A stretch of 46,604 nt of DNA, from sequence record OQ243221. The stretch is one strand, 5' to 3'. This document shows positions 45 to 34,532 of the stretch, in pieces (position 1 is the first letter of the stretch; each line of letters opens with the position of its first letter). This DNA is from Escherichia phage vB_EcoS-UDF157lw. The notes under the pieces were generated by a model. The model made no database searches. It saw only the letters and a program-made list of their open reading frames with translations, and was not told where the DNA came from. A program made the translations under genes and the position numbers.

Positions 45-235
45 TTTATATACGCGTAGTCCGCTGTCTACCGATTGTCGACCGTATCCACATTTACAAT
101 TTATACGCCTTGATACAATCCATATACACTAAAATATCCTTATATATAAAGTACTTAGACTATTATTATTATTATATATAGTATTATGTATATATAGCGT
201 ATCATCTGTACGCTACTATATAGGTTGGTTTGCTT
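45..235. repeat. AT-rich non-coding block homologous to 27079-27270 (direct repeat, diverged)
   Basis: See partner; contains TATACGC-type repeats at 47-54, 101-108, 198-205 (inverted) and an ATTATTATTATTAT tract. Confidence 0.6.
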
Positions 236-1596: not shown

Positions 1597-1623
1597 ACAA
1601 TAAATTGGGTAGTCAGCTATGAT
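1581..1623 (+). promoter_or_regulatory. Composite promoter-like element: TAGCACaaaTTGCTAAA, 22 nt, TATGAT
   Basis: Palindrome TAGCA-N5-TGCTA overlapping the stop of the upstream gene; -10-like hexamer 22 nt downstream; leader ...AAACGAGAGGA before ATG 1655. Confidence 0.5.
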
Positions 1624-1654
1624 TACCCTATCAACCAAACGAGAGGAATAAAAG

Positions 1655-1888
1655 ATGATCTTAATTAACCTATCTGAAAGGCAAGCCAAAGAGATTAAAG
1701 CAGTACTGATGCATTGCATTAACCGAAAGCTATTTAGCTCGTCAGAATCGCTTACAGAGGTTGTAAATCAGATTCGAAATCAGGAGTTTGAAGATATACT
1801 GCCGTGGGAAGAGGACTTGGCCTGGCTTGAGTACGAGCAGGTTTGCACGGCACTATCAGGCTGCCAACTGGCTAGCCAATACAAGTGA
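1655..1888 (+). CDS. Hypothetical protein (77 aa)
   Basis: ORF with RBS aacgagagga; preceded by composite promoter element. Confidence 0.5.
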   Translation: MILINLSERQAKEIKAVLMHCINRKLFSSSESLTEVVNQIRNQEFEDILPWEEDLAWLEYEQVCTALSGCQLASQYK

Positions 1889-2006
1889 CAATCTACGAAC
1901 ACACGTTCAGCAGCAGGGGTATCGATATGCTCTTGCATTACGTAGACGAGAGATACGCCATGTTAATGCAGAAGACGCATGGCGGCACTATAAAGAGGGT
2001 TGAGAT

Positions 2007-2123
2007 ATGTACTACTATATAATTCCTGTTGAAGATTTGATTCGTGATTACAGTCACGGCTACATTGCTGTATGCGACGCTGATACAATGACTGCATATG
2101 TTGACTTTGATTTTGAGGATTGA
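2007..2123 (+). CDS. Small hypothetical protein (38 aa)
   Basis: Hand-translated ORF MYYYIIPVEDLIRDYSHGYIAVCDADTMTAYVDFDFED; RBS agaggg-ttgagat-ATG nearly identical to the RBS context of the next gene. Confidence 0.3.
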   Translation: MYYYIIPVEDLIRDYSHGYIAVCDADTMTAYVDFDFED

Positions 2124-2126
2124 GAT

Positions 2127-2426
2127 ATGAGTAAGTACGAAAAAGAGATTATTGGCCTGGACGGCACCAAGACTACGGTTGATGTATATCGCGTCATCGC
2201 AGCATTTGGCGTAACGGACCCGGCACTACAGCATGCCATCAAAAAGGTACTGTGCAGCGGCATTCGAACACGACATAAGGATTACCCTACCGACATCAAT
2301 GAGGCCATTGTATCGCTTCAGAAGGCCATAGAATTCCATGATCAAAGGGGCGCACATGTCCAGGAACTTATAGACAAGTATCGCAACGGACCTAAACATT
2401 ATCTTGATAGCTGGAGCAACAAATAG
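2127..2426 (+). CDS. Hypothetical protein (99 aa)
   Basis: ORF with RBS gagga 8 nt upstream; the stop codon is the TAG of the downstream TAGCAC motif. Confidence 0.55.
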   Translation: MSKYEKEIIGLDGTKTTVDVYRVIAAFGVTDPALQHAIKKVLCSGIRTRHKDYPTDINEAIVSLQKAIEFHDQRGAHVQELIDKYRNGPKHYLDSWSNK

Positions 2427-2466
2427 CACAAATTGCTAAACATCCATCGCAAGGATGCGTTACCAT
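2424..2466 (+). promoter_or_regulatory. Composite promoter-like element: TAGCACaaaTTGCTAAA, 22 nt, TACCAT (weak -10)
   Basis: Same architecture; spacer holds inverted repeat CATCC...GGATG; leader TATCGAAATGAGACGAGG. Confidence 0.4.
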
Positions 2467-2498
2467 TACTTTATCGAAATGAGACGAGGAAAGATTAA

Positions 2499-2627
2499 AT
2501 GTGTGGATATGATGAGTTGCCAAGTGAATGGTGTAAAAAGATGATGGATGAGGCTAAAGATGGGGATGAAGTAATGGCGTACTTTGAGTTGATGAACATG
2601 TGGCATGAGCGCGAGGAGAAGAAATGA
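2499..2627 (+). CDS. Small hypothetical protein (42 aa)
   Basis: ORF MCGYDELPSEWCKKMMDEAKDGDEVMAYFELMNMWHEREEKK with RBS cgagga; stop overlaps next start (ATGA). Confidence 0.3.
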   Translation: MCGYDELPSEWCKKMMDEAKDGDEVMAYFELMNMWHEREEKK

Positions 2628-2917
2628 AGATTTACGTATTCACTGGCAACTTATTGGCAGCCAACGATTCTGAAGGTGGTGACGGCAAGCGAGCAATTCA
2701 CATGGGGAGTAAGAAACAAACAATGAGGCGCATATCTATTGATGAAGCAATTAAAATTGGTAGCTTCGTTTGCTTGTGGGTATGTGATGGTGAGCTTCAA
2801 GCGGAACAGGTTAGGAATGGTTACGTATATACTGGATATGATGAATATGACGATGAGAGAGAATTGTTTCAGCCTGCATTTTATCTCGACGCTGAATTTT
2901 ACATCGCTGGAGAATAA
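2624..2917 (+). CDS. Hypothetical protein (97 aa)
   Basis: ORF in track; translationally coupled to the upstream small ORF. Confidence 0.5.
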   Translation: MKIYVFTGNLLAANDSEGGDGKRAIHMGSKKQTMRRISIDEAIKIGSFVCLWVCDGELQAEQVRNGYVYTGYDEYDDERELFQPAFYLDAEFYIAGE

Positions 2918-2920
2918 CCC

Positions 2921-3055
2921 ATGATATGGATTCACACGTACTACACTGGCAAGTTCAATAGCGTAATGCACAAACGAATGTATGACAGCTATGAATCAGC
3001 AAAGGCACAGCAGGCAGTCCTAGGTGGCGATATTCAATCTTACAAGAAGGCTTAA
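2921..3055 (+). CDS. Small hypothetical protein (44 aa)
   Basis: Hand-translated ORF MIWIHTYYTGKFNSVMHKRMYDSYESAKAQQAVLGGDIQSYKKA; ends 2 nt before the next ATG. Confidence 0.3.
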   Translation: MIWIHTYYTGKFNSVMHKRMYDSYESAKAQQAVLGGDIQSYKKA

Positions 3056-3057
3056 TC

Positions 3058-3297
3058 ATGTTCGGACTTACTCAACCACAATTTAATGCAGTTCGCGCCC
3101 AAGCTAAGAAACTTAACGAGGCAGTGGATAAGCTGACAAGCAAGCAGAAGCAGGATAATGACATCATGAAGGCGATTATCTGTGAGTTTCATAGCCCAGT
3201 CAGTACAATCATCGAGAAGATGAAGTTTGTTTGGGTTGCAGGCTATCTTGCTGGTCGCGTAGGTAAGCGTGAAGATGGGGAGCAGATTTATGACTAA
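3058..3297 (+). CDS. Hypothetical protein (79 aa)
   Basis: ORF in track; tightly packed with flanking genes. Confidence 0.5.
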   Translation: MFGLTQPQFNAVRAQAKKLNEAVDKLTSKQKQDNDIMKAIICEFHSPVSTIIEKMKFVWVAGYLAGRVGKREDGEQIYD

Positions 3298-3484
3298 ATC
3301 ACTAGGGAAAGTCAGATGCATTGTGTCTTACAATGATAAGAAGTTCAAAACTGGTAAATCTTACAGCATTTTGTCATCACCCGCATATGGTTGGGTTAAA
3401 TGTGAGTCAGAAGATGGGTGTATAGAGATGGTTAAAGATGGCAATGACATTGAGTTTGGTTACTTTGAGGTATTTTATGACTGA
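3290..3484 (+). CDS. Hypothetical protein (64 aa; start moved to internal ATG)
   Basis: ATG at 3290 overlaps the upstream stop (ATGACTAA); the track start at 3269 would overlap 29 nt. Confidence 0.45.
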   Translation: MTKSLGKVRCIVSYNDKKFKTGKSYSILSSPAYGWVKCESEDGCIEMVKDGNDIEFGYFEVFYD

Positions 3485-3541
3485 GCTATCAATCTGGTTC
3501 CTGGCTGGCATGTTGACGTGGATTTATTTCGTCGTCATGGC

Positions 3542-3570
3542 TTGACGAAAATGTTAAAAGTGGTTAGTAT
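3542..3570 (+). promoter_or_regulatory. Candidate sigma70-type promoter (TTGACG, 17 nt, TAGTAT) upstream of the tRNA region
   Basis: Hexamers and 17-nt spacing read directly; lies in a 286-bp non-coding gap. Confidence 0.3.
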
Positions 3571-3770
3571 TAACCACGTAGACGGCAATGACCGTAACGC
3601 TCATCGCGGAGATGCAAGCCGATAGCCGGGCTGGATAAAGATACGAGGCAAATAAAACCGCAGTTAGACATTGAGTGCTTAGCATAGCGCACGCCTTAAT
3701 GCAGTAAGTCGGACTTGACCTTCCGAGGATTGTGAAACCTCCCCGCATTCGGTAAGCGGGACTCATTCTA

Positions 3771-3846
3771 GTTCTGCTGGCGTAACAGGATAACGCAGAG
3801 ACCTCCTAAGTCTCAGTTACTGGTTCGAGTCCAGTGCGGAACACCA
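3771..3846 (+). tRNA. tRNA-Arg (anticodon CCU, reads AGG)
   Basis: Hand-folded cloverleaf: acceptor GTTCTGC/GCGGAAC (one G-U), D-arm GCGT/ACGC with GG in loop, anticodon stem GAGAC/GTCTC with loop CTCCTAA (U33, CCT, A37), T-arm ACTGG-TTCGAGT-CCAGT, discriminator A, encoded CCA. Confidence 0.85.
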
Positions 3847-3862
3847 AGCATGGAGCATCCTA

Positions 3863-4048
3863 GTGAATAACTACGAAGTCCGTTTAACTTCCCGCCTAAT
3901 GGGTCGGCAATGCAAATCTTGCCAGCAATCCTACGAAGGTAGGTTCATTGCTAAAAGCCCTGAAGAAGCAGTTGCAGCCGCAAAGGCAGCATTTAATATT
4001 GACCTGACAGTTCACAAGGTCAGCGTTGATAAAGTATCCCTCGTTTGA
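3863..4048 (+). CDS. Hypothetical protein (61 aa, GTG start)
   Basis: ORF in track; GGAG 7 nt upstream of GTG; followed by a strong terminator. Confidence 0.35.
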   Translation: MNNYEVRLTSRLMGRQCKSCQQSYEGRFIAKSPEEAVAAAKAAFNIDLTVHKVSVDKVSLV

Positions 4049-4076
4049 GATTGGTCATCTCGCAATGCAGTACTTT

Positions 4077-4100
4077 GCCCTCCTTGTGAGGGCTTTTTTT
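4077..4100 (+). terminator. Rho-independent terminator
   Basis: GCCCTC-cttgt-GAGGGC hairpin followed by TTTTTTT. Confidence 0.7.
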
Positions 4101-4147
4101 CGTCCATAGTCATGGTACAATGACTTTTAAAACAGGAGGAATATCAA

Positions 4148-4663
4148 ATGTCAGAAGAGAAAAAGATTCACCAGAAGATTGGCAACTTCAAGGAGCTATA
4201 CAATAAGAAGTATGGCGACATTGCCAATCTAAAGATTAACCACAGGTACACTCCTGAGCAGGTATTCGACATGGCCGTAAGGTATTTCAGCTGGGCTGAA
4301 GAGCAAGCGATTAAGGCCATTGAAACGGCGAGCTTTCAGGGTGTTGTAACGGAAAACCTTGTTCATAAGCCACGAATATTTACGATAACTGGATTCCAAC
4401 TTTTCTGCGGCGTTGGTCATAATGCCATCAGTAAATGGCGCTCTTCGCCTGGATTTGATGAGGTGATGGAGTTTGTGGATTCGGTAATCTTTGAGCAGAA
4501 GTATCAGCTTGGCGTTAACAACATCATCAACCCTGGACTGATTGGCAAAGACCTTGGCATCGATAAGCCGCAAGAGGTTAACATCAACAACGCTTCTAAT
4601 GCGGCAGTGAACGATGAAGAAGCGATCAAGGCTGCTCTCGAATCAGTAATTGATAAGCTATAG
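4148..4663 (+). CDS. Putative terminase small subunit (171 aa)
   Basis: Position immediately upstream of the terminase large subunit; strong RBS aggagga; own promoter-like region after terminator. Assignment is positional. Confidence 0.5.
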   Translation: MSEEKKIHQKIGNFKELYNKKYGDIANLKINHRYTPEQVFDMAVRYFSWAEEQAIKAIETASFQGVVTENLVHKPRIFTITGFQLFCGVGHNAISKWRSSPGFDEVMEFVDSVIFEQKYQLGVNNIINPGLIGKDLGIDKPQEVNINNASNAAVNDEEAIKAALESVIDKL

Positions 4664-10529: not shown

Positions 10530-12074
10530 ATGGCTTTAGAGTTTATGGAAGTTGTAGCTAAGACTTATGGCGACCTGGAGAGGCTAGTAAAGGCAAAAAT
10601 GCTAGAAGGATGGATGCCATTTGATAGCTTAATTGACAATAGATTTACTATCGCAATTGTTATGGTTAAGGGTAGTGATGCGCAGCTTACCGACTTTAGG
10701 ATTCTCGGTGATAGCACTAGAGTTAAATTAATAAGCAAGGCTAACAAATTAATTGCTGATGACCCTGAGTGGGAGGTTTTCGGTCACCCTCAAATATTTG
10801 GCGCTGACGATTACATAGTTTCATTATCAAAAGGCTTTAAGGGAACTACTGGTAGGGATGGCATGGCTGGCCCGCAAGGACCGCAAGGACCGCGCGGCGA
10901 AGTTGGCCCAGAAGGTCCGCAGGGTCCAAGGGGTGACGATGGCGCTGATGGGGAAAAGGGTGAGCGTGGAGCAGTAGGCCCGCAAGGACCAATTGGCCCA
11001 CAGGGTATTCAGGGTCCACAGGGAGTTCAAGGGCCAGCTGGATTAAAGGGCGATAAAGGTGATAAGGGTGATGTTGGCCCACAGGGACCACAAGGATTAA
11101 AAGGTGATACTGGAGAGAAAGGCGACCCTGGAGAAGTTGGCCCTGCTGGTTTAACATTCCGTGGTCAGTGGGTTCCTGGCACTGGTTATACAAAAGACGA
11201 TACCGTAGTTTATAACGGATCAACTTACTTTGCGGTTAATGATATTGCAGCTGATGAGGAGCCAGGTGTATCACCTTTGTGGGTGGTTCTTGCCGCTCAA
11301 GGCACGAAAGGTGACAAGGGTGATAAAGGCGACCCTGGAGATATCGGACCTCAAGGGGAGAAGGGTGATACTGGACCTCAAGGTCCGAGAGGTATTCAGG
11401 GTCCGCAAGGTATTCAGGGGTTAACAGGTGAGCAAGGTCCGCAAGGTGAGCAGGGGCCGCAAGGGATTGTTGGGCCGACTGGACCGCAAGGGCCAAAAGG
11501 TGACACCGGACCTCAAGGTATTCAAGGGCCGCAAGGCATCAGGGGACTTACTGGGCCGATAGGACCACAGGGACCGCAGGGAGAGAAGGGCGAAAAGGGA
11601 GATAAAGGGGAAAAAGGCGAAACTGGTGCAACCGGACCACAGGGTCCAGCGGGTCAAAATAATACAAATAATCCAGTTTATACAACTCAACTTACCGTAT
11701 CTACAAGCTACTCAGCTATAGCCATACCAAATAACCCTGGTGTATCTTTTACAATCAGGAGGGTTGGTAATAACATTGAGTACTCTTTTACAGGCAACTC
11801 AATTCCAGGAAGGTATTTTGATGTTGAGGTTGTAAACTTTCCATCAGCTGACGTAGTTAAAAGATACCAGTCAAATCAGACAATTTCAGGTACAAATAGG
11901 TATGTTGTAGGTGATCCTGCTGGTTATACTGGCGGTGGATACAAAAGGATTCAATTCTCAGCTAGAGATTGGGGGGATAAAAACATTATAATGATTGATG
12001 TTTTTCACCTTCAGCGCCCAACTGATACTAGTTTTAGCATCGCAATTAGGATTGAGACATTCAAGCTGCCATAA
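10530..12074 (+). CDS. Collagen-like repeat protein with embedded carbohydrate-binding-like motif (514 aa); putative fibre/decoration
   Basis: Two blocks of uninterrupted Gly-X-Y triplets (about residues 110-205 and 265-385) separated by [26 protein letters not shown]...PLWVV, which resembles CBM5/12 chitin-binding-type motifs; distinct N- and C-terminal globular domains. Confidence 0.85.
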
Positions 12075-15073: not shown

Positions 15074-15724
15074 ATGGCCCATCTCAGCAATGGCACACAA
15101 ATTTTTTTGCAAGGCTCTAAATCTGAATCGGTAGCCGTAACGGCTATCACTAACGCAGCTCAGCCAGTTATGACGGTAGCTGACGCTTCAATTTTCGCAG
15201 CTGGTGACTTCATTGTTGTTGAGTCATCTTCATGGTCTAAACTTTCAGAGAAACAGTTGCGAGTAGTTACATCAACGGCTACAACAATTACCGTTGAAGG
15301 CATTGACACTACTGACCCGCTTCAGTTCCCAGCTGGCGGAACGGCATCGATCTACAAGGTTCTTACCTGGTATGAAATGCCTTGTGTTCAAGACGTTTCA
15401 ACTGATGGCGGAGAGCAGCAGTTCGTTACTTATCAGTGCCTGGCTGATGACCGTGAGCAGCAGATTCCAACCTATAAGTCAGCGGTAAACACGACCTATA
15501 CGTTTGCTCACGAGTTCACCAACCCGATCTACCCGGTACTCCGTAACTACGACGAGTCTGGAGCGCTGATTGCGATTCGTGCATACGTTCCTAAAGCTGG
15601 CGAAGTTCGACTTTGGACTGGCACTATCGCGTTTAACGAAACTCCAAACGTTTCCGTTAACGAGATCGAAACTGTATCCGTAGCAATTACGGTGCGTGGA
15701 CGCTATAGCTTCCTGGCTGCATAA
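15074..15724 (+). CDS. Major tail protein (216 aa)
   Basis: Position upstream of chaperones and tape measure; followed by strong terminator. Confidence 0.55.
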   Translation: MAHLSNGTQIFLQGSKSESVAVTAITNAAQPVMTVADASIFAAGDFIVVESSSWSKLSEKQLRVVTSTATTITVEGIDTTDPLQFPAGGTASIYKVLTWYEMPCVQDVSTDGGEQQFVTYQCLADDREQQIPTYKSAVNTTYTFAHEFTNPIYPVLRNYDESGALIAIRAYVPKAGEVRLWTGTIAFNETPNVSVNEIETVSVAITVRGRYSFLAA

Positions 15725-19971: not shown

Positions 19972-20187
19972 ATGAAAATTAATTTGCTTTGCACAAATGC
20001 TGAAGTTGGTGTCTTTGATTTAAATGTTGGTCAAACTTATGTGGCATACTTCAATGATGATTATGGTCATTATGAACTTTCTGATGAAGGTTTTTCTTAT
20101 GAGTTAAGCGAGGTTAGAGGTGCTCCTTTGACTTTCTACTGTAAATCTTTTAGTGGTGGATTGGTGACATTCATTAAAGTAAACTAA
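19972..20187 (+). CDS. Hypothetical protein (71 aa) in a moron-like insertion
   Basis: Own promoter element upstream and own terminator downstream, inserted between M-like and L-like tail genes; RBS agaggtg. Confidence 0.5.
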   Translation: MKINLLCTNAEVGVFDLNVGQTYVAYFNDDYGHYELSDEGFSYELSEVRGAPLTFYCKSFSGGLVTFIKVN

Positions 20188-20207
20188 GACCCTACGGGGT
20201 CTTTTTA
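20188..20207 (+). terminator. Rho-independent terminator
   Basis: GACCC-tac-GGGGTC hairpin followed by TTTTTATT. Confidence 0.65.
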
Positions 20208-28639: not shown

Positions 28640-29608
28640 ATGAGCTTCAAGGTTTACACTAGCGACGAGTTAACCAACGAAGCCTACCACAAGGAGTCAG
28701 ACCATGTGTCTGGCTCTGGTCTGGCTCACATCTTCTCAACTTGCCCCGCTGCTTATAAGTTTGCAGAGCATGATGATAGCAATAAGGCGTTAAAGTTCGG
28801 TACATTAGCCCACACGGTTATTCTTGAAAACTATGTATTCGATGCGACTTACTATCGCCAGCCAGCGCAAGAAGAGTTTGAGGATCTGATTACTAGCAAG
28901 ACTGCTTTGGCAACTCGATTGAAGTCGATGGGTATTGCTGGAACATCTGGTAAGGATTATCCAGAATTAATGGAGATTCTGGCGCTGAGCGGTGAATCAC
29001 TTAACGTATGGTGGGATATTCAGCGCTCTAGCGAGGTTAAAGCGAACGGTCGCGAGATTGTATCAGCTAAAGACTTTGACACAGTACATGCGATGCGAGA
29101 GGTGCTGTGCGGCATTCCTGCATACAATGCGATAGTGAACAGTAAAACCGCTCAGCGAGAGTTATCAATCTTCGGTGAGATTAACGAGTGCGGCGTTAAG
29201 GTTCGTCTTGACCATGTCGATGTCGTTGATGATGTAGTTTATATCCGTGACTACAAGACGACTAGCGACGCATCTCCATCTGGATTTGGGAGATTGGCCT
29301 TCAAGCATGGTTACTTGCTAAAAATGGCGCTTCAGCATGATTTGTTTGTTCGCGCCTTTAATGAGAAGCGTCGAGTTGTTGTTCAGCTTCTTTGCCAGGA
29401 AAAGAAAAGCCCATTCCTTCCAATGTGCTACACGATAACAAAAGAGCACTTAAAGGTTGGTAGATTGCAATACATGAGCGCCCTATCCACATACAAGCAA
29501 TGCAAGAAACTTGATATTTGGCCTGGTTACGGATTTGGCGAAACAGAGATGGAACTGCAAGTTCCTGAGTATGAGATGAAGAAGTACGAAGATAGCACGA
29601 ATAGCTAA
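28640..29608 (+). CDS. Recombination exonuclease, PD-(D/E)XK family (RecE/YqaJ/lambda-Exo-like, 322 aa)
   Basis: Motif LDHVDVVDDVVYIRDYKTT (D..D..K-type nuclease core); adjacent to an Erf-family annealase. Confidence 0.65.
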   Translation: MSFKVYTSDELTNEAYHKESDHVSGSGLAHIFSTCPAAYKFAEHDDSNKALKFGTLAHTVILENYVFDATYYRQPAQEEFEDLITSKTALATRLKSMGIAGTSGKDYPELMEILALSGESLNVWWDIQRSSEVKANGREIVSAKDFDTVHAMREVLCGIPAYNAIVNSKTAQRELSIFGEINECGVKVRLDHVDVVDDVVYIRDYKTTSDASPSGFGRLAFKHGYLLKMALQHDLFVRAFNEKRRVVVQLLCQEKKSPFLPMCYTITKEHLKVGRLQYMSALSTYKQCKKLDIWPGYGFGETEMELQVPEYEMKKYEDSTNS

Positions 29609-29664: not shown

Positions 29665-30312
29665 ATGAAGACTTCAGAGAGTAACAAAACAGTTTTACAG
29701 GCACTATTTAAAGCTCGCACAGGATTTGCGAAGGCAGCAAGAGACAAGCAGAACAGTCACCTAAAGAATAGATACGCAACACTTGATTCCATGCTGGAGG
29801 CTGTAATCCCAGCACTTGATGATAACGACTTAATGATTATGCAGAGCATGTTAGAAACATCAACTGCTGACAATCTTAACGTAGAGACGACTCTCTATCA
29901 CGTTTCTGGCGAGTGGGTTAGCTTCTTCATGATTATGCCAATCGTTAAGAAAGACCCGCAAGGAGTAGGATCTGCATTTACATACGCTCGGCGTTACTCA
30001 CTAGCGGCGGCTTTGGGAATTAGTCAGTCTGACGATGATGCGCAGATGGCAGTTAAGAGCGTCAAGGACTGGAAGCGCGATATTGAGAAGGCAGAAACTC
30101 GAGAAGAGCTTATCGAAATCTACAAATCATGCAAATCACAAGCTGACACGGCAACGTGGGGTATAGTAGAGAAAGCGATAATAGATAAACAAGCAGAGAT
30201 CAAAATGGCTTCCGCAAGTGGCTTCAACCCAGCTAAGCCAAAGGAAGTTGCTAAAAAAGTTGCAAACGCAACTAATGAAGTAGTAGAATCACAATCAATC
30301 GAGCAGTTCTAA
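29665..30312 (+). CDS. erf: Erf-family single-strand annealing protein (215 aa)
   Basis: Conserved Erf-like stretch LYHVSGEW...FTYARRYSLAAALGISQSDDD; paired with the exonuclease. Confidence 0.8.
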   Translation: MKTSESNKTVLQALFKARTGFAKAARDKQNSHLKNRYATLDSMLEAVIPALDDNDLMIMQSMLETSTADNLNVETTLYHVSGEWVSFFMIMPIVKKDPQGVGSAFTYARRYSLAAALGISQSDDDAQMAVKSVKDWKRDIEKAETREELIEIYKSCKSQADTATWGIVEKAIIDKQAEIKMASASGFNPAKPKEVAKKVANATNEVVESQSIEQF

Positions 30313-30359: not shown

Positions 30360-30782
30360 ATGCATACTTTAACAGGCGTAATTCGTAAGGCTCCTTTCAC
30401 TAAAGATGGTCAGAACGCCAAGGGTAACTGGAAGATGTACGCTATCGAAATGAGCGAATCTTATAAAACACGAGATGGAGAGCGTAAGTATAGTAATTAT
30501 CGAGCTACCTTCTTTGCTAGCGAGGCGCAAATTAGCTGGTATGACGAAGCATTTCAGGAAGGAAAAGTTATCTCTGTGAGCGGCGATTCATTAGCGGTTA
30601 ATGAGCGCGAACATAATGGCAAGACATATATTACGCTTGAGTTGCAGAATCCTCGATTGATGTTTAGTCAGCGAGGAGGTGAATCAGAACAGCAGCAGCA
30701 GCGACAACAAGCTCAACAGCAACAGAGACAGCAGCCGCAGCAACAAAGCCGATTTAGTGATGAAGATGATATTCCGTTTTAA
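30360..30782 (+). CDS. ssb: Single-stranded DNA-binding protein (140 aa)
   Basis: OB-fold-like N-terminal region, Gln-rich linker, acidic tail ending DEDDIPF. Confidence 0.85.
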   Translation: MHTLTGVIRKAPFTKDGQNAKGNWKMYAIEMSESYKTRDGERKYSNYRATFFASEAQISWYDEAFQEGKVISVSGDSLAVNEREHNGKTYITLELQNPRLMFSQRGGESEQQQQRQQAQQQQRQQPQQQSRFSDEDDIPF

Positions 30783-30788
30783 CTCAAA

Positions 30789-30816
30789 AGAAAAAGCCCC
30801 TTTCGGGGCTTTTTTA
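30789..30816. terminator. Bidirectional rho-independent terminator
   Basis: AGCCCC-tttc-GGGGCT flanked by an A-run upstream and a T-run downstream. Confidence 0.7.
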
Positions 30817-31842
30817 TTGTGACGTTACATCACCATTCAAACTCAAAAATACTGATTGTTTTGTCAAATCAACACCACCTTTAAGCGAATAGTATCTTGA
30901 AGCGCAATAATCAGACTCATCTGAATAGCTGCCAACGTAAACACCAAAGCCATATCCAGAGCAAGCTACATCACCAGCGCCTTGACCTGAATACATGGTT
31001 ACATAGTTACCGGCTGTTGTTAGTATAGGTCTGACATCAATATCTATATACTGAGAATCAAATGACCTTCTAACTCTAAATCCAGTATTCAGGTTTAAGA
31101 TGCTCCACCAAACCTTACCAGATACATCAAAACCAAGAGCAATATTGTAAGTACCACCGTTGACCATTCTTGATGAGACTGGCAACACACCTGATAAAAC
31201 TCTTGTTTCACCTGATGCTGATATTAACAATGAGACACTGTGTTCTCCTGATGCCATCACGTTATACTGCAAGTAAAGAGCATTACTACTAACTCCAAAA
31301 CCAGTCCCTATAGCCATAAGGTTAAAGTCTTCAGCAACAGTTATGGTCGGCGATATATTGCATGTAGCGGTGAAACCTAGTGACGGGTCAAATCCAGTGC
31401 ATATAATCTTATCTTTATTTGCCTGTGAAAGCCTTAGCCAATATTGCTGCCCAACTGATGATGCCGCTGCGGCGAATACTGGTGTATTAGAGACCCCATC
31501 AAAAGCTGAAGTGTCGTTTGCTGGCTTAATTCTTGTCTTCCTTTTGTCTATCAGTCCGTTTATCTTCAGGTTTCCTGAATACTCAGCAACATAGTTAGTG
31601 TCCCCTGAGAAATTTGGGCCAAAGTAACCAGATTCAACAACCCCATCGATCACAACATCAGATCTTGAGTCAAGGAATCTGAAGTTGCCAGCGGAAGTTG
31701 GCCTTCCATCGCCATTGTTAGATACATAGTTAAGCCCAACAAAACCATAGATTCTTACAGAGCTATTTGAAAACGAAACGTTATAATCTCTGTAGTTTGA
31801 GTTTATGCTGTTCCTGTTACTATTTAATCCATTAAATACCAC
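30814..31842 (-). CDS. Tailspike/tail fibre C-terminal portion (342 aa ORF; probably the continuation of 31854-33530)
   Basis: No ATG or RBS (GTG in track); reading frame is open 26 codons further upstream and overlaps the end of the 558-aa ORF in another frame; Ser/Gly/Asn-rich beta composition. Confidence 0.5.
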   Translation of the reverse strand: MVFNGLNSNRNSINSNYRDYNVSFSNSSVRIYGFVGLNYVSNNGDGRPTSAGNFRFLDSRSDVVIDGVVESGYFGPNFSGDTNYVAEYSGNLKINGLIDKRKTRIKPANDTSAFDGVSNTPVFAAAASSVGQQYWLRLSQANKDKIICTGFDPSLGFTATCNISPTITVAEDFNLMAIGTGFGVSSNALYLQYNVMASGEHSVSLLISASGETRVLSGVLPVSSRMVNGGTYNIALGFDVSGKVWWSILNLNTGFRVRRSFDSQYIDIDVRPILTTAGNYVTMYSGQGAGDVACSGYGFGVYVGSYSDESDYCASRYYSLKGGVDLTKQSVFLSLNGDVTSQ

Positions 31843-31853
31843 ATTTCTGGAGT

Positions 31854-33530
31854 TTACAATTCTAACACCGTCACCACCGCAATCCTGCGCCCTATAGCTG
31901 ACATGGTGATGTTTTGGCAGTTATCAATCAGGATGCCATAAGCATCATCAAGCTCATTATAAGCCGACCAACCCGACCAAATAAACTTACCGCCAACAAT
32001 CCTACAGTTTCCGGCATTCCTAAGTATTAGACAATTTCTTCCACAGGTGTTTACCTGTATGTTATTCCATGTGAAGTCTGTTGTTTCGTTAATCAATCCG
32101 TCTTTTTTTATGTGCTGAATAAGAACATCATCAAGAACAGGAGAGTAGTTACCAGCAGCAACGAAAATTCCGTAAACATCAAACCCAGCAATGTGAGTGT
32201 TTCTTATCGTTAAGTCCCTTCTAGGGTCAGCACCAGCGTTGAATGGGTAATTGGTTGATAACCCAGTCGGCGTAGGGATGTAAATCCCAGCAGTACCATC
32301 AGTAAACGCCGTGTCTTGCTGGGCTCCAGTGCCGTAAAGAGCAATGCCTTCAATATGAATGAGCGAGCAAGAATCAGATACCTCAATTAAAGAGCCAATT
32401 GATGAACTAAGCTGAGTTATTCTTGATTTGTGCTTGCCAAAACCAATTATAGAGCAAGATTTATTTCTCATTACCAGGTTTGATGCCATGTAGTCGCTAT
32501 CAAGCTTTAATGCCAGCCCAGAGTCTAGGATTTGCTGTATCTGTGTCGTTGAGTCTGATGTCGATGACTTAATAGCTCCAAGTTCGCAAGGCGACAGCTC
32601 CCCGCTACAGATTCTTTCCCAGTAATAACCGGTACTTGATTCAAAAACCAATCCTGAAGATAATCCATATGATAACGATGACTCCGGCTTACAAACAAAG
32701 AACCCACCACCATAACCAAGACCACCAATGTAAGAATCACAATAGACAACCTCTAAGTCATAAATTCTGGCAGAGTTTGTCATTGCTGATACTGATTCAA
32801 ACCTTCTTGTGTAATCCTGTTGAATCCAAAAACCAACTCCAATACCACCTGTAGACTGTGGTGATGAGTTTTGTGGTATGGATTTTGGAACGCTACCAGA
32901 CCAGTAATAAACCGAAACATGATTGTCATTAAAGTAAATTGCAGGCTGAGTTCTTGAGTTTATTTCTCCACCATTTGAGAAATCAACTACAAGAGCAGAT
33001 GACACAGAAGCCGCAGCAGAGCTTGCTATTGTAGCTGAAGAGGAAGCTGAGTTAGCGCTACTTTCAGCTAACTGCCTATCAGAAGATACCTGATCTTTGT
33101 CAGAAGAAACTTGAGCAGCATCAACAGCAACTTGCTGAGATTGCATGTTGACATTATTTACGCTTTGCTGGAAAGAATCAGAATCAAATTGATTAAAAGC
33201 ATCAACTGCCGCTGCAACCTCTGTTTCACGGGACTGATAATAACGAAGTGTCTCAGCAACGTCCTGAGCAAGACCTTGGACAGTAATTCCGTCATGAGCA
33301 AGGATTGAGTACTGAGTCCCAGCTGGCGCAGTAAAACCTTTATCATTGAATACACGAATCTCTGTATCGCTTAAAATCTCAGCGATAGTAACAATGCTTG
33401 TCGGGGTGGTGTTAAAAATCATTGTTGCGCCAACTCGGATTAGCGTTAGTGGTTGCCTCCACGTGGTGCCAACACCAGTTACAGTTCCGTCAGCTGCAAG
33501 CGATGCAGTTCCAGCGTCATAAATTGCCAT
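31854..33530 (-). CDS. Tailspike / side tail fibre N-terminal portion with beta-helix-like repeats (558 aa)
   Basis: GGAGA RBS; N-terminus MAIYDAGTASLAADGTVTGVGTTW; Ser-rich linker; repetitive N/G/I-rich segments consistent with a parallel beta-helix. Confidence 0.6.
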   Translation of the reverse strand: MAIYDAGTASLAADGTVTGVGTTWRQPLTLIRVGATMIFNTTPTSIVTIAEILSDTEIRVFNDKGFTAPAGTQYSILAHDGITVQGLAQDVAETLRYYQSRETEVAAAVDAFNQFDSDSFQQSVNNVNMQSQQVAVDAAQVSSDKDQVSSDRQLAESSANSASSSATIASSAAASVSSALVVDFSNGGEINSRTQPAIYFNDNHVSVYYWSGSVPKSIPQNSSPQSTGGIGVGFWIQQDYTRRFESVSAMTNSARIYDLEVVYCDSYIGGLGYGGGFFVCKPESSLSYGLSSGLVFESSTGYYWERICSGELSPCELGAIKSSTSDSTTQIQQILDSGLALKLDSDYMASNLVMRNKSCSIIGFGKHKSRITQLSSSIGSLIEVSDSCSLIHIEGIALYGTGAQQDTAFTDGTAGIYIPTPTGLSTNYPFNAGADPRRDLTIRNTHIAGFDVYGIFVAAGNYSPVLDDVLIQHIKKDGLINETTDFTWNNIQVNTCGRNCLILRNAGNCRIVGGKFIWSGWSAYNELDDAYGILIDNCQNITMSAIGRRIAVVTVLEL

Positions 33531-33582: not shown

Positions 33583-33602
33583 AAAAAACCCTCCGAAGAG
33601 GG
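33583..33602 (-). terminator. Rho-independent terminator (minus strand) after primase
   Basis: On the minus strand: CCCTC-ttcg-GAGGG followed by TTTTTT. Confidence 0.6.
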
Positions 33603-33608
33603 TGATTG

Positions 33609-34532
33609 CTATGAATGCTTATCTATCAGATCTTGCGGGTTATATAACCTTCTTTCAAGCCCCATCTTGAAATTGCCACCTTTAGGTATTACGACTTTTA
33701 GACCTCTATCATCAGCAACATAAAGCGACTCCTTTTCATCAGCTAAGCAAGCTATCCTGCACTCTTTATTCCTGAGTTCATAAGCAACCATTTCTAAGTT
33801 GTGGTGAGTTAGGCAGTCGTAAGTTGTCCTTTTTGTGCATGCCGATACATGTAGTGCGTTAATCCAGCCAACAGTGAGGTAGATAGCGCCATCACTACAT
33901 TTACTTACCGGAACAACCGAGCCGCGAGTGTAGTCTTTTGCGAGATATGACTCATTACCCTCTTCATCTATAAACTTTACGTTACAAGGCTCATCTGATA
34001 AACCATCCTCGTAAACCATAAAGCATTGCTCGGCTATAATTTCTTCTCCAGACCCCTTTATTCCTATTTTGTATTCCCGTTCAGTAATAATTGCTTCAAA
34101 TCTCGTAAGCTGTGTCATTTCTACAGACTTGGTGCGAGATATTACCTTCTCGATTGATTCAATGGATGCCTGAGCGCCAAAGTTATATCTCTGAACTCGG
34201 CTCGCTGCTTTGTTTGCCTTCACTATGATTTCGACGGGAGTCAAATTAAGCCAGTCGCCAAGTAAATTTATAGCTTCCGCAAATCTAAGGCCGGAACATT
34301 TCATAACCCATCCTATTCCTGAGTCACTGCCGCACTTAGAGCAAACTGCGGCCCCATTACCTTTTTCGCTTCCTATTTCGTCTGTAAACCTGAATCTGTC
34401 AGTACCAAAGCAATAAGGGCACGGCCCGTGCTTCTTGCTAAGGTGTCTATCATTCCAACCAAGCTCCTTTGCATAAAATGATTTCCACAATCCAGCCATT
34501 TTAGGTATTACTTCATTCTTGTCGTAATTCAT
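33609..34532 (-). CDS. Putative DNA primase (zinc-ribbon type, 307 aa)
   Basis: CPYCFG...CSKCG zinc-binding motif near the N-terminus; acidic motif YVADDRG; located in the replication module. Confidence 0.5.
   Translation of the reverse strand: MNYDKNEVIPKMAGLWKSFYAKELGWNDRHLSKKHGPCPYCFGTDRFRFTDEIGSEKGNGAAVCSKCGSDSGIGWVMKCSGLRFAEAINLLGDWLNLTPVEIIVKANKAASRVQRYNFGAQASIESIEKVISRTKSVEMTQLTRFEAIITEREYKIGIKGSGEEIIAEQCFMVYEDGLSDEPCNVKFIDEEGNESYLAKDYTRGSVVPVSKCSDGAIYLTVGWINALHVSACTKRTTYDCLTHHNLEMVAYELRNKECRIACLADEKESLYVADDRGLKVVIPKGGNFKMGLERRLYNPQDLIDKHS

What the first reader, a model, noticed from the sequence alone, without database searches (positions are those of the whole stretch)
30814..33530. 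Leftward tailspike-like gene embedded in the replication module and split into two frames
A 558-aa ORF with beta-helix-like composition is followed 12 nt later by a 342-aa ORF that has no ATG or RBS; the second frame is open 26 codons upstream and overlaps the end of the first in the -1 frame. Together they would give an approximately 900-aa tailspike or fibre. The split may be a genuine frameshift mutation (pseudogenised receptor-binding protein), a sequencing error near the AAAA run at about 31911, or programmed frameshifting.
Basis: seen in the sequence. Interest (0 to 1): 0.55.

Follow-up and report, generated by a model that had tools for sequence, protein, structure and literature searches.

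The report
Tailspike gene split by one-base deletion
The two leftward ORFs are the halves of one ordinary O157-specific phage tailspike gene, split in this published genome (phage UDF157lw) by a single missing base. The phage's published behaviour suggests the gene really works, so this is a sequence or annotation problem to re-check, not new biology.

Summary
ORFs 31854..33530 (558 aa) and 30814..31842 (342 aa), both on the minus strand, are collinear halves of one 905-aa tailspike.

The window is Escherichia phage vB_EcoS-UDF157lw (Rogunavirus, Drexlerviridae). All 13 close relatives have a single 2718-nt gene. The window alone lacks one A, the middle base of the GAG codon for Glu547, between 31892 and 31891. 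The lesion is not at the AAAA run.

Residues 241-896 are about 54% identical to the solved O157-specific tailspike TSP2 of phage CBA120. Glu547 corresponds to its catalytic Glu568, on the eighth of eleven beta-helix rungs. The position between the recombination genes and the primase is the normal lateral-fibre locus of this family.

Programmed frameshifting is not supported. There is no slippery heptamer, no stimulatory structure, no RBS for the second ORF, and no conservation of the split.

The phage was sequenced at very high Illumina depth, which favours a real deletion. But it was isolated and grown on smooth O157:H7, is O157-specific, and makes haloed plaques like its intact-gene relative BECP10. 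That implies a working tailspike.

I favour an unrepresentative or erroneous deposited base (about 0.5) over true pseudogenisation (about 0.3). Interest is low to moderate.

The parts
30814..33530 (-). Whole tailspike gene (2717 nt here, 2718 nt in relatives). It is an O157-specific TSP2-like lateral tailspike interrupted by a 1-nt deletion.
   Evidence: 99.1-99.5% nucleotide identity to single 'tail fiber/tail spike' CDSs in 10 GenBank relatives (97.6% to e4/1c). phrog_4818 matches collinearly across both ORFs.
31854..33530 (-). ORF1 (annotated UDF157lw_00044, 'tail fiber protein', 558 aa). It has native residues 1-546, then Gly and 11 out-of-frame residues (RRIAVVTVLEL), then TAA.
   Evidence: Supplementary Table S2 of PMC10838988.
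30814..31920 (-). Open stretch of the -1 frame (annotated UDF157lw_00043, 'tail fiber protein'). It encodes native residues 548-905 from 31890 downwards (G31891 is the surviving third base of the Glu547 codon). It has no credible start: CTG at 31920, and a GTG at 31842 without an SD.
31891..31892 (-). Site of the lesion. Gene strand is ...GCTATAG^GGCGCAGG...; relatives read ...GCTATAGAGGCGCAGG.... The missing A is the middle base of GAG (Glu547, equivalent to TSP2 Glu568).
   Evidence: Alignments (13 relatives all carry the A). Residue mapping.
33006..33530 (-). N-terminal virion-anchor domain (aa 1-175), shared with other Drexlerviridae lateral fibres and depolymerases.
   Evidence: PDB 'Depolymerase' chains 7VYV, 7VZ3 and 7LZJ match residues 1-175 at E about 1e-35. 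Many tail-fibre PHROGs match only residues 1-170/190. The 5' end alone is 84.6% identical to other genera (H21-H24).
32820..32987 (-). Head domain D1 (Pfam Tail_spike_N, aa 182-237).
   Evidence: E 1.5e-13.
30844..32810 (-). Body homologous to CBA120 TSP2 (aa 241-896): D3', the 11-rung beta-helix D3 and the D4 beta-sandwich. The frameshift falls at the 8th rung.
   Evidence: E 1e-173; 54% identity without gaps over a 260-aa stretch. Domain description from PMC7506556.
32076..32078 (-). Codon of Asp485 (equivalent to TSP2 catalytic Asp506). It is retained in ORF1.
   Evidence: codon position read from the translation.
31882..31884 (-). Codon of Asp550 (equivalent to TSP2 catalytic Asp571). It now lies in the -1 frame, downstream of the lesion and upstream of the GTG, so neither ORF as called encodes it.
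33588..33603 (-). Terminator-like hairpin after the primase gene. It marks the upstream boundary of the tailspike transcription unit.
   Evidence: annotated as a terminator in AKS96.
30791..30814 (-). Terminator-like hairpin immediately after the tailspike stop codon (bidirectional with ssb).
   Evidence: annotated as terminators in AKS96, AHP24 and AHS24.

Best explanation
The two ORFs are one gene. It is the lateral tailspike of a Rogunavirus (phage UDF157lw), a trimeric beta-helix O-antigen glycosidase of the CBA120 TSP2 type. This enzyme binds and cleaves the E. coli O157 O-antigen so that the siphovirus can reach its terminal receptor.

In this record the gene is broken by loss of a single A inside the codon for the catalytic Glu547. 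As written, it would give a 558-aa truncated protein that keeps the virion anchor, the head and eight beta-helix rungs. That protein loses two of the three catalytic carboxylates, the last three rungs, the capping helix and the D4 domain. The distal piece is untranslatable. The split is not programmed.

I think the missing base most likely does not represent the infectious phage. It could be an error introduced during assembly or manual curation, or a variant that dominated only the sequenced DNA preparation. The reason is that the published phage behaves exactly as if it had an intact tailspike.

Shown: gene identity, the lesion, its uniqueness, and the absence of recoding signals. Inferred: that the lesion is unrepresentative.
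For: Identity of the window:
- The length of 46,604 bp and every ORF coordinate match Supplementary Table S2 of PMC10838988, which gives the accession as OQ243221.

One gene:
- The phrog_4818 hits are collinear across both ORFs.
- All 11 GenBank relatives and 2 Logan assemblies carry the extra A, and apart from JK06 (split further downstream) each encodes a single frame of 905-920 aa.
- The repaired protein differs by 2-4 aa from most relatives.

Function:
- E 1e-173 to PDB 5W6P/6W4Q, with D506/E568/D571/R594/Y623 conserved as D485/E547/D550/R573/Y602 (PMC7506556).
- BECP10, whose tailspike differs by 2 aa, requires the O157 O-antigen and makes large haloed plaques (PMC8402813).

Not programmed:
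- No slippery heptamer, no run longer than AAAA, and no SD.
- RNA fold z = +0.35.

Unrepresentative:
- UDF157lw was isolated and propagated on smooth O157:H7 ATCC 35150.
- It plates at EOP 0.25-1.6 on five smooth O157 strains, and not on non-O157 STEC, two other generic E. coli strains or Salmonella.
- It forms haloed plaques only on O157 strains and reduces biofilm.
- No other depolymerase candidate was recognised among the five tail and structural proteins scanned. The 'depolymerase' ORF_26 is an ordinary tail tube protein that differs by 1-2 aa from relatives.
- The deposited sequence is 212 bp longer than the reported contig and was 'manually curated', so it was edited after assembly.
- The gene shows no other decay: 2 synonymous changes and 1 non-synonymous change unique to the window.
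Against: - The genome was sequenced on Illumina MiSeq (2x250, about 5 million reads) and assembled with Unicycler. A consensus deletion at a non-homopolymer site (GAGG to GGG) is rare for that chemistry.
- The rest of the assembly looks clean. In 18 kb that is 99.4% identical to Rogue1, this is the only internal indel.
- UDF157lw differs from BECP10 in two host-range details that a defective tailspike might explain. It plates on E. coli ATCC 13706 at EOP 0.06 without halos, and at <0.001 on O157:H7 ATCC 43888, the strain BECP10's Tn5 mutant library was built in and screened on.
- Halos are only indirect evidence of a depolymerase.
- No reads or independent assembly of this phage could be found.
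Confidence: 0.5

Rival explanations
1. Genuine loss-of-function mutation. The deletion is real and fixed in the stock, so UDF157lw is a natural tailspike-null (or tailspike-truncated) Rogunavirus. This would be analogous to the side-tail-fibre frameshift of laboratory lambda PaPa. The phage would then infect through its central fibre (gpJ) and the downstream receptor-binding protein alone.
For: - High-depth Illumina data and an otherwise indel-free assembly.
- The site is not a homopolymer.
- Lateral fibres of Drexlerviridae are proposed (by analogy with T5-like phages) to be dispensable when no O-antigen barrier is present (PMC8594841).
- Low-efficiency, halo-less plating on ATCC 13706, which I recall is rough E. 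coli C (papers co-mention the two names).
- Poor plating on ATCC 43888, unlike BECP10.
Against: - The phage was isolated and always propagated on smooth O157:H7. There the near-identical BECP10 needs polymerised O-antigen (wzy and rfaJ mutants are resistant), so a null allele should be strongly counter-selected.
- Host range remains O157-specific with high EOP, and K-12-type or generic strains are resistant.
- O157-specific halos and an anti-biofilm effect are seen, with no other depolymerase candidate among the tail and structural proteins scanned.
- There are no secondary lesions in the gene.
Confidence: 0.32
2. The deletion is real but is compensated by recoding. A non-canonical -1 ribosomal shift, or polymerase slippage at or near ATA-GGG, would yield enough full-length tailspike (for example with E547G) to arm the virion.
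For: - It would reconcile the Illumina-supported sequence with the tailspike-like phenotype.
- Only a few trimers are needed per virion.
- A shift with Gly-tRNA on GGG moving to AGG would give ...SAIGAQDCGG..., which keeps D550. In TSP2, Glu568 is only an auxiliary catalytic residue.
- Rare codons (ATA, AGG) flank the site (read directly from the sequence).
Against: - There is no X XXY YYZ heptamer and no homopolymer longer than 4 in the 67-nt overlap.
- There is no significant downstream structure (z = +0.35).
- Re-pairing after a -1 slip on A-GGG is poor.
- The flanking sequence is identical in 12 of 13 relatives (e4/1c has substitutions near the site) that need no recoding, so no signal can have evolved.
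Confidence: 0.05
3. Two separate functional proteins. The 558-aa N-terminal piece would act as a shortened fibre, and the 342-aa piece would be made by termination-reinitiation at the GTG 12 nt after the stop. The two might re-associate.
For: - The stop and the GTG are close.
- Some lateral fibres in small siphoviruses are naturally built from two or more polypeptides (PMC8594841).
Against: - The break lies inside a beta-helix rung, not at a domain boundary.
- Residues 547-562, including E547 and D550, would be absent from both products.
- ORF2 has no SD.
- Apart from JK06, every relative makes one polypeptide from a 97.6-99.5% identical gene.
- The distal piece has no virion anchor.
Confidence: 0.03

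Closest known systems
CBA120 TSP2 (ORF211; PDB 5W6P, 5W6S, 6W4Q), the O157-specific tailspike of a Kuttervirus
   Same: Residues 241-896 align at E 1e-173, with 54% identity and no gaps across the catalytic region. The catalytic and neighbouring residues D506/E568/D571/R594/Y623 are all conserved. The domain order is the same: D1 head, neck, D3', beta-helix D3, D4.
   Different: The N-terminal 175 aa are a Drexlerviridae-type anchor (similar to PDB 7LZJ/7VYV depolymerases) rather than the TSP2 assembly region. The carrier is a T1-like siphovirus. In this record the reading frame is broken at the Glu568-equivalent codon.
Intact tailspike / 'tail fiber' genes of Rogunavirus relatives (BECP10 ORF34, Rogue1 gp46, AKS96_32, AHP24_34, C119_29 and others)
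   Same: Same locus between ssb and primase, same flanking terminators, 99.1-99.5% nucleotide identity, and 2-4 amino-acid differences after repair.
   Different: They have 2718 nt and one 905-aa frame. The window has 2717 nt and two frames.
Lambda PaPa stf frameshift (side tail fibre gene split into two ORFs in the laboratory strain)
   Same: A single-base lesion splits a non-central fibre gene into two ORFs, and the phage is still viable. PMC8594841 notes the absence of lateral fibres in lambda PaPa. The orf401/orf314 details are from my memory of Hendrix and Duda 1992.
   Different: Lambda PaPa is grown on rough K-12, where the fibre is dispensable, and the lesion was verified experimentally. 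UDF157lw is grown on smooth O157:H7 and shows the phenotype expected of an intact spike.
JK06 JK_75/JK_76 (the same gene annotated as two 'tail fiber proteins')
   Same: The orthologous gene is split into two CDSs in a database record.
   Different: The JK06 split lies elsewhere. It is caused by five single-base gaps within about 60 nt, at positions equivalent to window 31334-31274. JK06 carries the A that is missing here.
Programmed -1 frameshifting of phage tail genes (e.g. lambda G/GT tail assembly chaperone)
   Same: Two overlapping frames in a tail-related gene, with the second in the -1 frame.
   Different: There is no conserved slippery heptamer, no stimulatory structure, and no conservation of the two-frame arrangement in any relative.

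Membership tests
TSP2-type O157 O-antigen tailspike glycosidase (beta-helix depolymerase) | Sequence homology across D3', the beta-helix D3 and D4 to the solved TSP2 structure | tested here: met
   E 1.2e-173 to 5W6P and 2.5e-173 to 6W4Q over residues 241-896. 54% identity and no gaps over 260 aa.
TSP2-type O157 O-antigen tailspike glycosidase (beta-helix depolymerase) | Catalytic carboxylates (TSP2 Asp506, Glu568, Asp571) present in one polypeptide | tested here: not met
   All three are conserved in the relatives' protein (D485, E547, D550). In the window, ORF1 keeps only D485. The E547 codon is destroyed, and D550 lies in the other frame upstream of any start. The feature is met only after restoring the missing base.
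TSP2-type O157 O-antigen tailspike glycosidase (beta-helix depolymerase) | O157-specific polysaccharide-degrading activity | not testable with these tools
   The evidence is indirect and from the literature only: O157-restricted halos for UDF157lw (PMC10838988) and for BECP10 (PMC8402813).
Drexlerviridae lateral tail fibre / tailspike locus | Position between the recombination genes (exo, erf, ssb) and the primase/helicase genes | tested here: met
   Window order is exoVIII 28640-29608, erf 29665-30312, ssb 30360-30782, tailspike 30814-33530, primase 33609-34532. This matches the description in PMC8594841 S1C Fig.
Drexlerviridae lateral tail fibre / tailspike locus | Only the far N-terminus is conserved across genera, and the rest is swapped | tested here: met
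   The 5' 530 nt are 84.6% identical to Opt-79, Opt-719, Sadiya and Phleasolo while the rest does not match. Nine tail-fibre PHROGs match only residues 1 to about 170-190.
Programmed -1 ribosomal frameshift | Slippery heptamer X XXY YYZ in the zero frame within the overlap | tested here: not met
   None is present in the 67-nt overlap 31920-31854.
Programmed -1 ribosomal frameshift | Downstream stimulatory RNA structure | tested here: not met
   MFE -21.3 kcal/mol against a shuffle mean of -22.5; z = +0.35.
Programmed -1 ribosomal frameshift | Two-frame arrangement conserved among relatives | tested here: not met
   All 13 relatives are continuous at this site.
Genuine pseudogene (mutational inactivation) | Frame disruption relative to intact orthologues | tested here: met
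   A 1-nt deletion unique to the window.
Genuine pseudogene (mutational inactivation) | Lesion confirmed in the molecules themselves (reads, Sanger) and loss of the encoded function | not testable with these tools
   No reads or independent assembly are on record. The published phenotype points the other way.
Genuine pseudogene (mutational inactivation) | Further decay (extra stops, indels, excess non-synonymous change) | tested here: not met
   Only 2 synonymous changes and 1 non-synonymous change are unique to the window, and there are no other indels. This is compatible only with a very recent event or an artefact.

The most novel reading that the evidence does not exclude
The deletion is real in the infectious phage, yet UDF157lw still shows efficient, O157-specific, halo-forming infection of smooth O157:H7. 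That would mean one of two things. Either a full-length tailspike is made by recoding at a site with no recognisable frameshift signal, or rogunaviruses carry a second, unrecognised O157-specific adhesin or depolymerase that makes the TSP2-like spike dispensable.
Probability: 0.12. Interest if true: 0.6.

Novelty: new member of a known kind. Interest (0 to 1): 0.27.

Why it matters
The main value is as a correction to the record. The paper describing this phage states that it lacks a tail spike protein, and it credits the halo and anti-biofilm activity to the major tail (tube) protein. The sequence shows otherwise. The phage carries the same TSP2-like O157 tailspike as its relatives, broken by one base, and the tube protein is ordinary.

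If the base is simply missing from the record, the tailspike is the obvious source of the depolymerase activity and the O157 specificity that make the phage attractive for biocontrol and detection. If the deletion is real, the phage is a ready-made natural mutant. It could be used to test whether the lateral tailspike is needed for a T1-like phage to infect smooth O157:H7.

Tried and rejected
- I searched for the deleted allele elsewhere with an exact pattern that allows either allele. IMG/VR returned only intact alleles (phiKP26 and AHS24). JGI metagenomes and GTDB genomes returned nothing.
- I looked for an independent assembly of the same phage by exact product. ORF1, ORF2, the collagen-like ORF_19 and ORF_38 are not on record. 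The ssb and erf look-ups found only relatives, all with an intact 905-aa gene or an intact junction.
- I tested whether the assembly is generally prone to indels. It is not: this is the only internal indel in 18 kb at 99.4% identity to Rogue1. The T-run difference at 20207 is a natural polymorphism shared with C119, phiKP26, AHP24 and AHS24. The one-base-shorter T-run at about 45-48 is unique to the window but non-coding.
- I rejected the AAAA run (31915-31912) as the error site. It is identical in all relatives.
- I rejected programmed frameshifting, transcriptional slippage and independent translation of ORF2.
- I rejected ORF_26 (tail tube), ORF_19, ORF_31, ORF_35 and ORF_36 as alternative depolymerases on domain content.
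- I did not run structure prediction, fold search or the large protein-database searches. A solved structure at about 54% identity over the aligned catalytic region, matching residues 241-896, made them unnecessary.
Full report
**1. The observation**

The ORF list shows two minus-strand ORFs, 31854..33530 (558 aa, ATG) and 30814..31842 (342 aa). The GTG start of the second is purely mechanical.
- ORF1 ends at TAA 31856-31854.
- The next in-frame GTG of the other frame is 12 nt further on.
- That frame is open 26 codons upstream (to 31920) and is the -1 frame.
- No ATG or Shine-Dalgarno-like motif precedes it.

The pairing is not chance. Against PHROGs, ORF1 residues 1-546 match positions 1-540, and ORF2 residues 2-339 match positions 559-896, of the same 896-position family phrog_4818, 'tail fiber protein'.

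**2. What the window is**

Megablast places the window in Rogunavirus (Drexlerviridae, T1-like). It is 97-99% identical to BECP10, Rogue1, AKS96, AHP42 and others, but identical to none of them. The literature search then identified it. Phage vB_EcoS-UDF157lw is described with a genome of 46,604 bp, the window's exact length, and with BECP10 and AKS96 as closest relatives. Every ORF coordinate in that paper's Supplementary Table S2 coincides with the window. This includes 'tail fiber protein' 31854-33530 (ORF_44) and 'tail fiber protein' 30814-31920 (ORF_43) (PMC10838988). So the split is present in, and annotated in, a published record, which the paper gives as GenBank OQ243221.

**3. The lesion**

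In AKS96, Rogue1, BECP10, phiJLA23, C119, AHP24, AHP42 and AHS24 the orthologue is one CDS of 2718 nt (905 aa). e4/1c and phiKP26 also have one CDS. The window's gene is 2717 nt.

A multiple alignment shows exactly one window-specific indel. The gene strand reads ...GCTATAG-GGCGCAGG... where all 11 GenBank relatives and two Logan assemblies read ...GCTATAGAGGCGCAGG..., or GAAGCA in e4/1c. The missing A lies between window positions 31892 and 31891 and is the middle base of a GAG codon.

Restoring the A gives a 905-aa protein only 2-4 residues different from most relatives. Apart from the deletion, the window-unique changes in the gene are two synonymous substitutions and one non-synonymous substitution. 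There is therefore no sign of long-standing decay.

**4. What the gene is**

Pfam finds Tail_spike_N (aa 182-237) and a right-handed beta-helix (aa 438-591).

A search of solved structures gives E 1e-173 to CBA120 tailspike protein 2 (5W6P, 5W6S and the full-length 6W4Q) over residues 241-896. It also gives E about 1e-35 to the N-termini of three 'Depolymerase' chains (7VYV, 7VZ3, 7LZJ) over residues 1-175.

TSP2 is the determinant of CBA120's specificity for E. coli O157:H7. Its active site lies between trimer subunits and uses Asp506, Glu568 and Asp571, with Arg594 and Tyr623 nearby (PMC7506556). The alignment is gap-free here with an offset of 21 residues. These correspond to D485, E547, D550, R573 and Y602, and all are conserved.

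The deleted base therefore sits in the codon of the Glu568 equivalent, on about the eighth of eleven beta-helix rungs. As written, ORF1 keeps D485 but loses E547, D550, the last rungs, the buried capping helix and the D4 sandwich. D550 is encoded in the -1 frame upstream of the GTG, so neither ORF would contain it.

**5. Context**

The gene lies between ssb and primase and is flanked by terminator-like hairpins (annotated as terminators in AKS96). This is the standard lateral-fibre locus of Drexlerviridae. The flanking recombination and primase/helicase genes are syntenic, and only the 5' end of the fibre gene is conserved between genera (PMC8594841). I see the same pattern here: the first 530 nt are 84.6% identical to other genera, and many PHROGs match only residues 1 to about 180. 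'Embedded in the replication module' is therefore normal for this family.

**6. Programmed frameshifting?**

The evidence is against it:
- The 67-nt overlap has no X XXY YYZ heptamer and no homopolymer longer than AAAA.
- The surrounding 116 nt fold no better than shuffles (z = +0.35).
- The flanking sequence is identical in 12 of the 13 relatives, which read straight through (e4/1c differs by a few substitutions). No signal can have evolved for a lesion that a single isolate carries.

Independent translation of ORF2 is also unlikely. It has no SD, and the break lies within a beta-helix rung.

**7. Real mutation or artefact?**

The evidence pulls both ways.

*For a real deletion.* The genome was sequenced by MiSeq 2x250 with about 5 million reads and assembled with Unicycler. 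The site is not a homopolymer. The assembly is otherwise clean: in 18 kb at 99.4% identity to Rogue1, this is the only internal indel.

*Against a real, inactivating deletion.*
- The phage was isolated and always propagated on smooth O157:H7 ATCC 35150.
- It plates at EOP 0.25-1.6 on five O157 strains.
- It fails on non-O157 STEC, two other generic E. coli strains and Salmonella.
- It gives large haloed plaques on O157 strains only, and it reduces biofilm.
- BECP10, whose tailspike differs by two residues, shows the same large haloed plaques, infects only O157, and cannot plaque on wzy or rfaJ mutants that lack O-antigen.
- I recognised no other depolymerase candidate among the tail and structural proteins I scanned. 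The paper's candidate, ORF_26, is an ordinary tail tube protein (PF08813) that differs from Rogue1 and BECP10 by one or two residues.
- The deposited sequence is 212 bp longer than the reported contig and was manually curated. It is therefore not the raw assembly.

*Possible hints of a defect.* The phage plates on ATCC 13706 at EOP 0.06 without halos. I recall this strain is the rough phiX174 host E. coli C, and papers co-mention the two names. The phage also plates very poorly on O157:H7 ATCC 43888, the strain in which BECP10's resistant mutants were isolated. Neither comparison is controlled.

*My weighting.*

| Explanation | Probability |
|---|---|
| Unrepresentative or erroneous base | about 0.5 |
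| Genuine loss-of-function mutation | about 0.3 |
| Real deletion rescued by recoding | about 0.05 |
| Two functional pieces | about 0.03 |
| Other | remainder |

That the two ORFs are one tailspike gene broken by one missing base, and that the break is not programmed, I hold at about 0.95.

**8. Comparison with known cases and novelty**

The protein belongs with TSP2-type O157 tailspikes in sequence and catalytic residues, fused to a Drexlerviridae anchor. As written in this record, it fails the requirement of having the catalytic residues in one polypeptide.

The situation resembles the lambda PaPa side-tail-fibre frameshift. It also resembles the JK06 record, where the same gene is split elsewhere by five single-base gaps.

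This is a further example of a known kind of event. The useful new points are three. The paper's statement that UDF157lw lacks a tail spike is not what the sequence shows. The halo is better explained by this gene than by the tube protein. And one PCR would settle the matter.

Noticed in passing
window 15074-15724 (+), ORF_26: The published description credits this 'unique major tail protein' with depolymerase activity. It is an ordinary tail tube protein (Pfam PF08813, E 6e-72) that differs by 1 aa from Rogue1 and 2 aa from BECP10. It is an unlikely source of the halos.
   Followed up: yes
whole window (46,604 bp) compared with PMC10838988 methods: The paper reports a Unicycler contig of 46,392 bp but a final genome of 46,604 bp. 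The extra 212 bp are unexplained. I found no terminal or internal repeat in the window that would account for them.
   Followed up: partly
L002 (JK06, NC_007291.1) 1621-4333; equivalent to window 31334-31274: JK06 annotates the same gene as two 'tail fiber proteins' (JK_75/JK_76). The cause is five single-base gaps within about 60 nt. JK06 also has split erf, helicase and exonuclease genes, which suggests a low-quality 2005 sequence.
   Followed up: partly
window ~45-48 (+): A T-run is one base shorter than in JK06, AHP42, BECP10 and Rogue1 (and shorter than in e4/1c). This is the only other window-unique single-base deletion I saw. It lies in a non-coding region that is annotated as a promoter in AHP42.
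   Followed up: partly
window ~20202-20207 (+): The T-tract of the terminator after ORF_31 is T5 here and in C119, phiKP26, AHP24 and AHS24, but T6 in Rogue1, BECP10, AKS96 and others. This is natural length polymorphism, not an error signature.
   Followed up: yes
window 30814-31920 (-), ORF_43 as annotated: The published annotation starts ORF_43 at 31920. That is the first codon (CTG) after the upstream stop of that frame, so it is not a start codon. The annotated CDS is simply the open frame.
   Followed up: yes
window 10530-12074 (+), ORF_19: A 514-aa collagen-repeat protein sits in the head module, with a weak carbohydrate-binding CBM_5_12 match (E 3e-4, below the Pfam cutoff). It is longer than BECP10's 'collagen-like protein' and is annotated 'tail fiber protein' in Rogue1. 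It could be a decoration or fibre protein that varies between isolates.
   Followed up: no
L009 (phiKP26, KC579452.1) 221-2998: The phiKP26 tail fibre CDS is annotated as longer (2778 nt; I read 920 aa to the first stop) and overlaps ssb. This suggests a change at or near its stop codon.
   Followed up: no
window 19972-20187 (+), ORF_31: A 71-aa ORF is annotated 'tailspike sialidase' here and in BECP10, C119 and phiKP26. It has no Pfam match, so the name looks like a propagated mis-annotation.
   Followed up: partly
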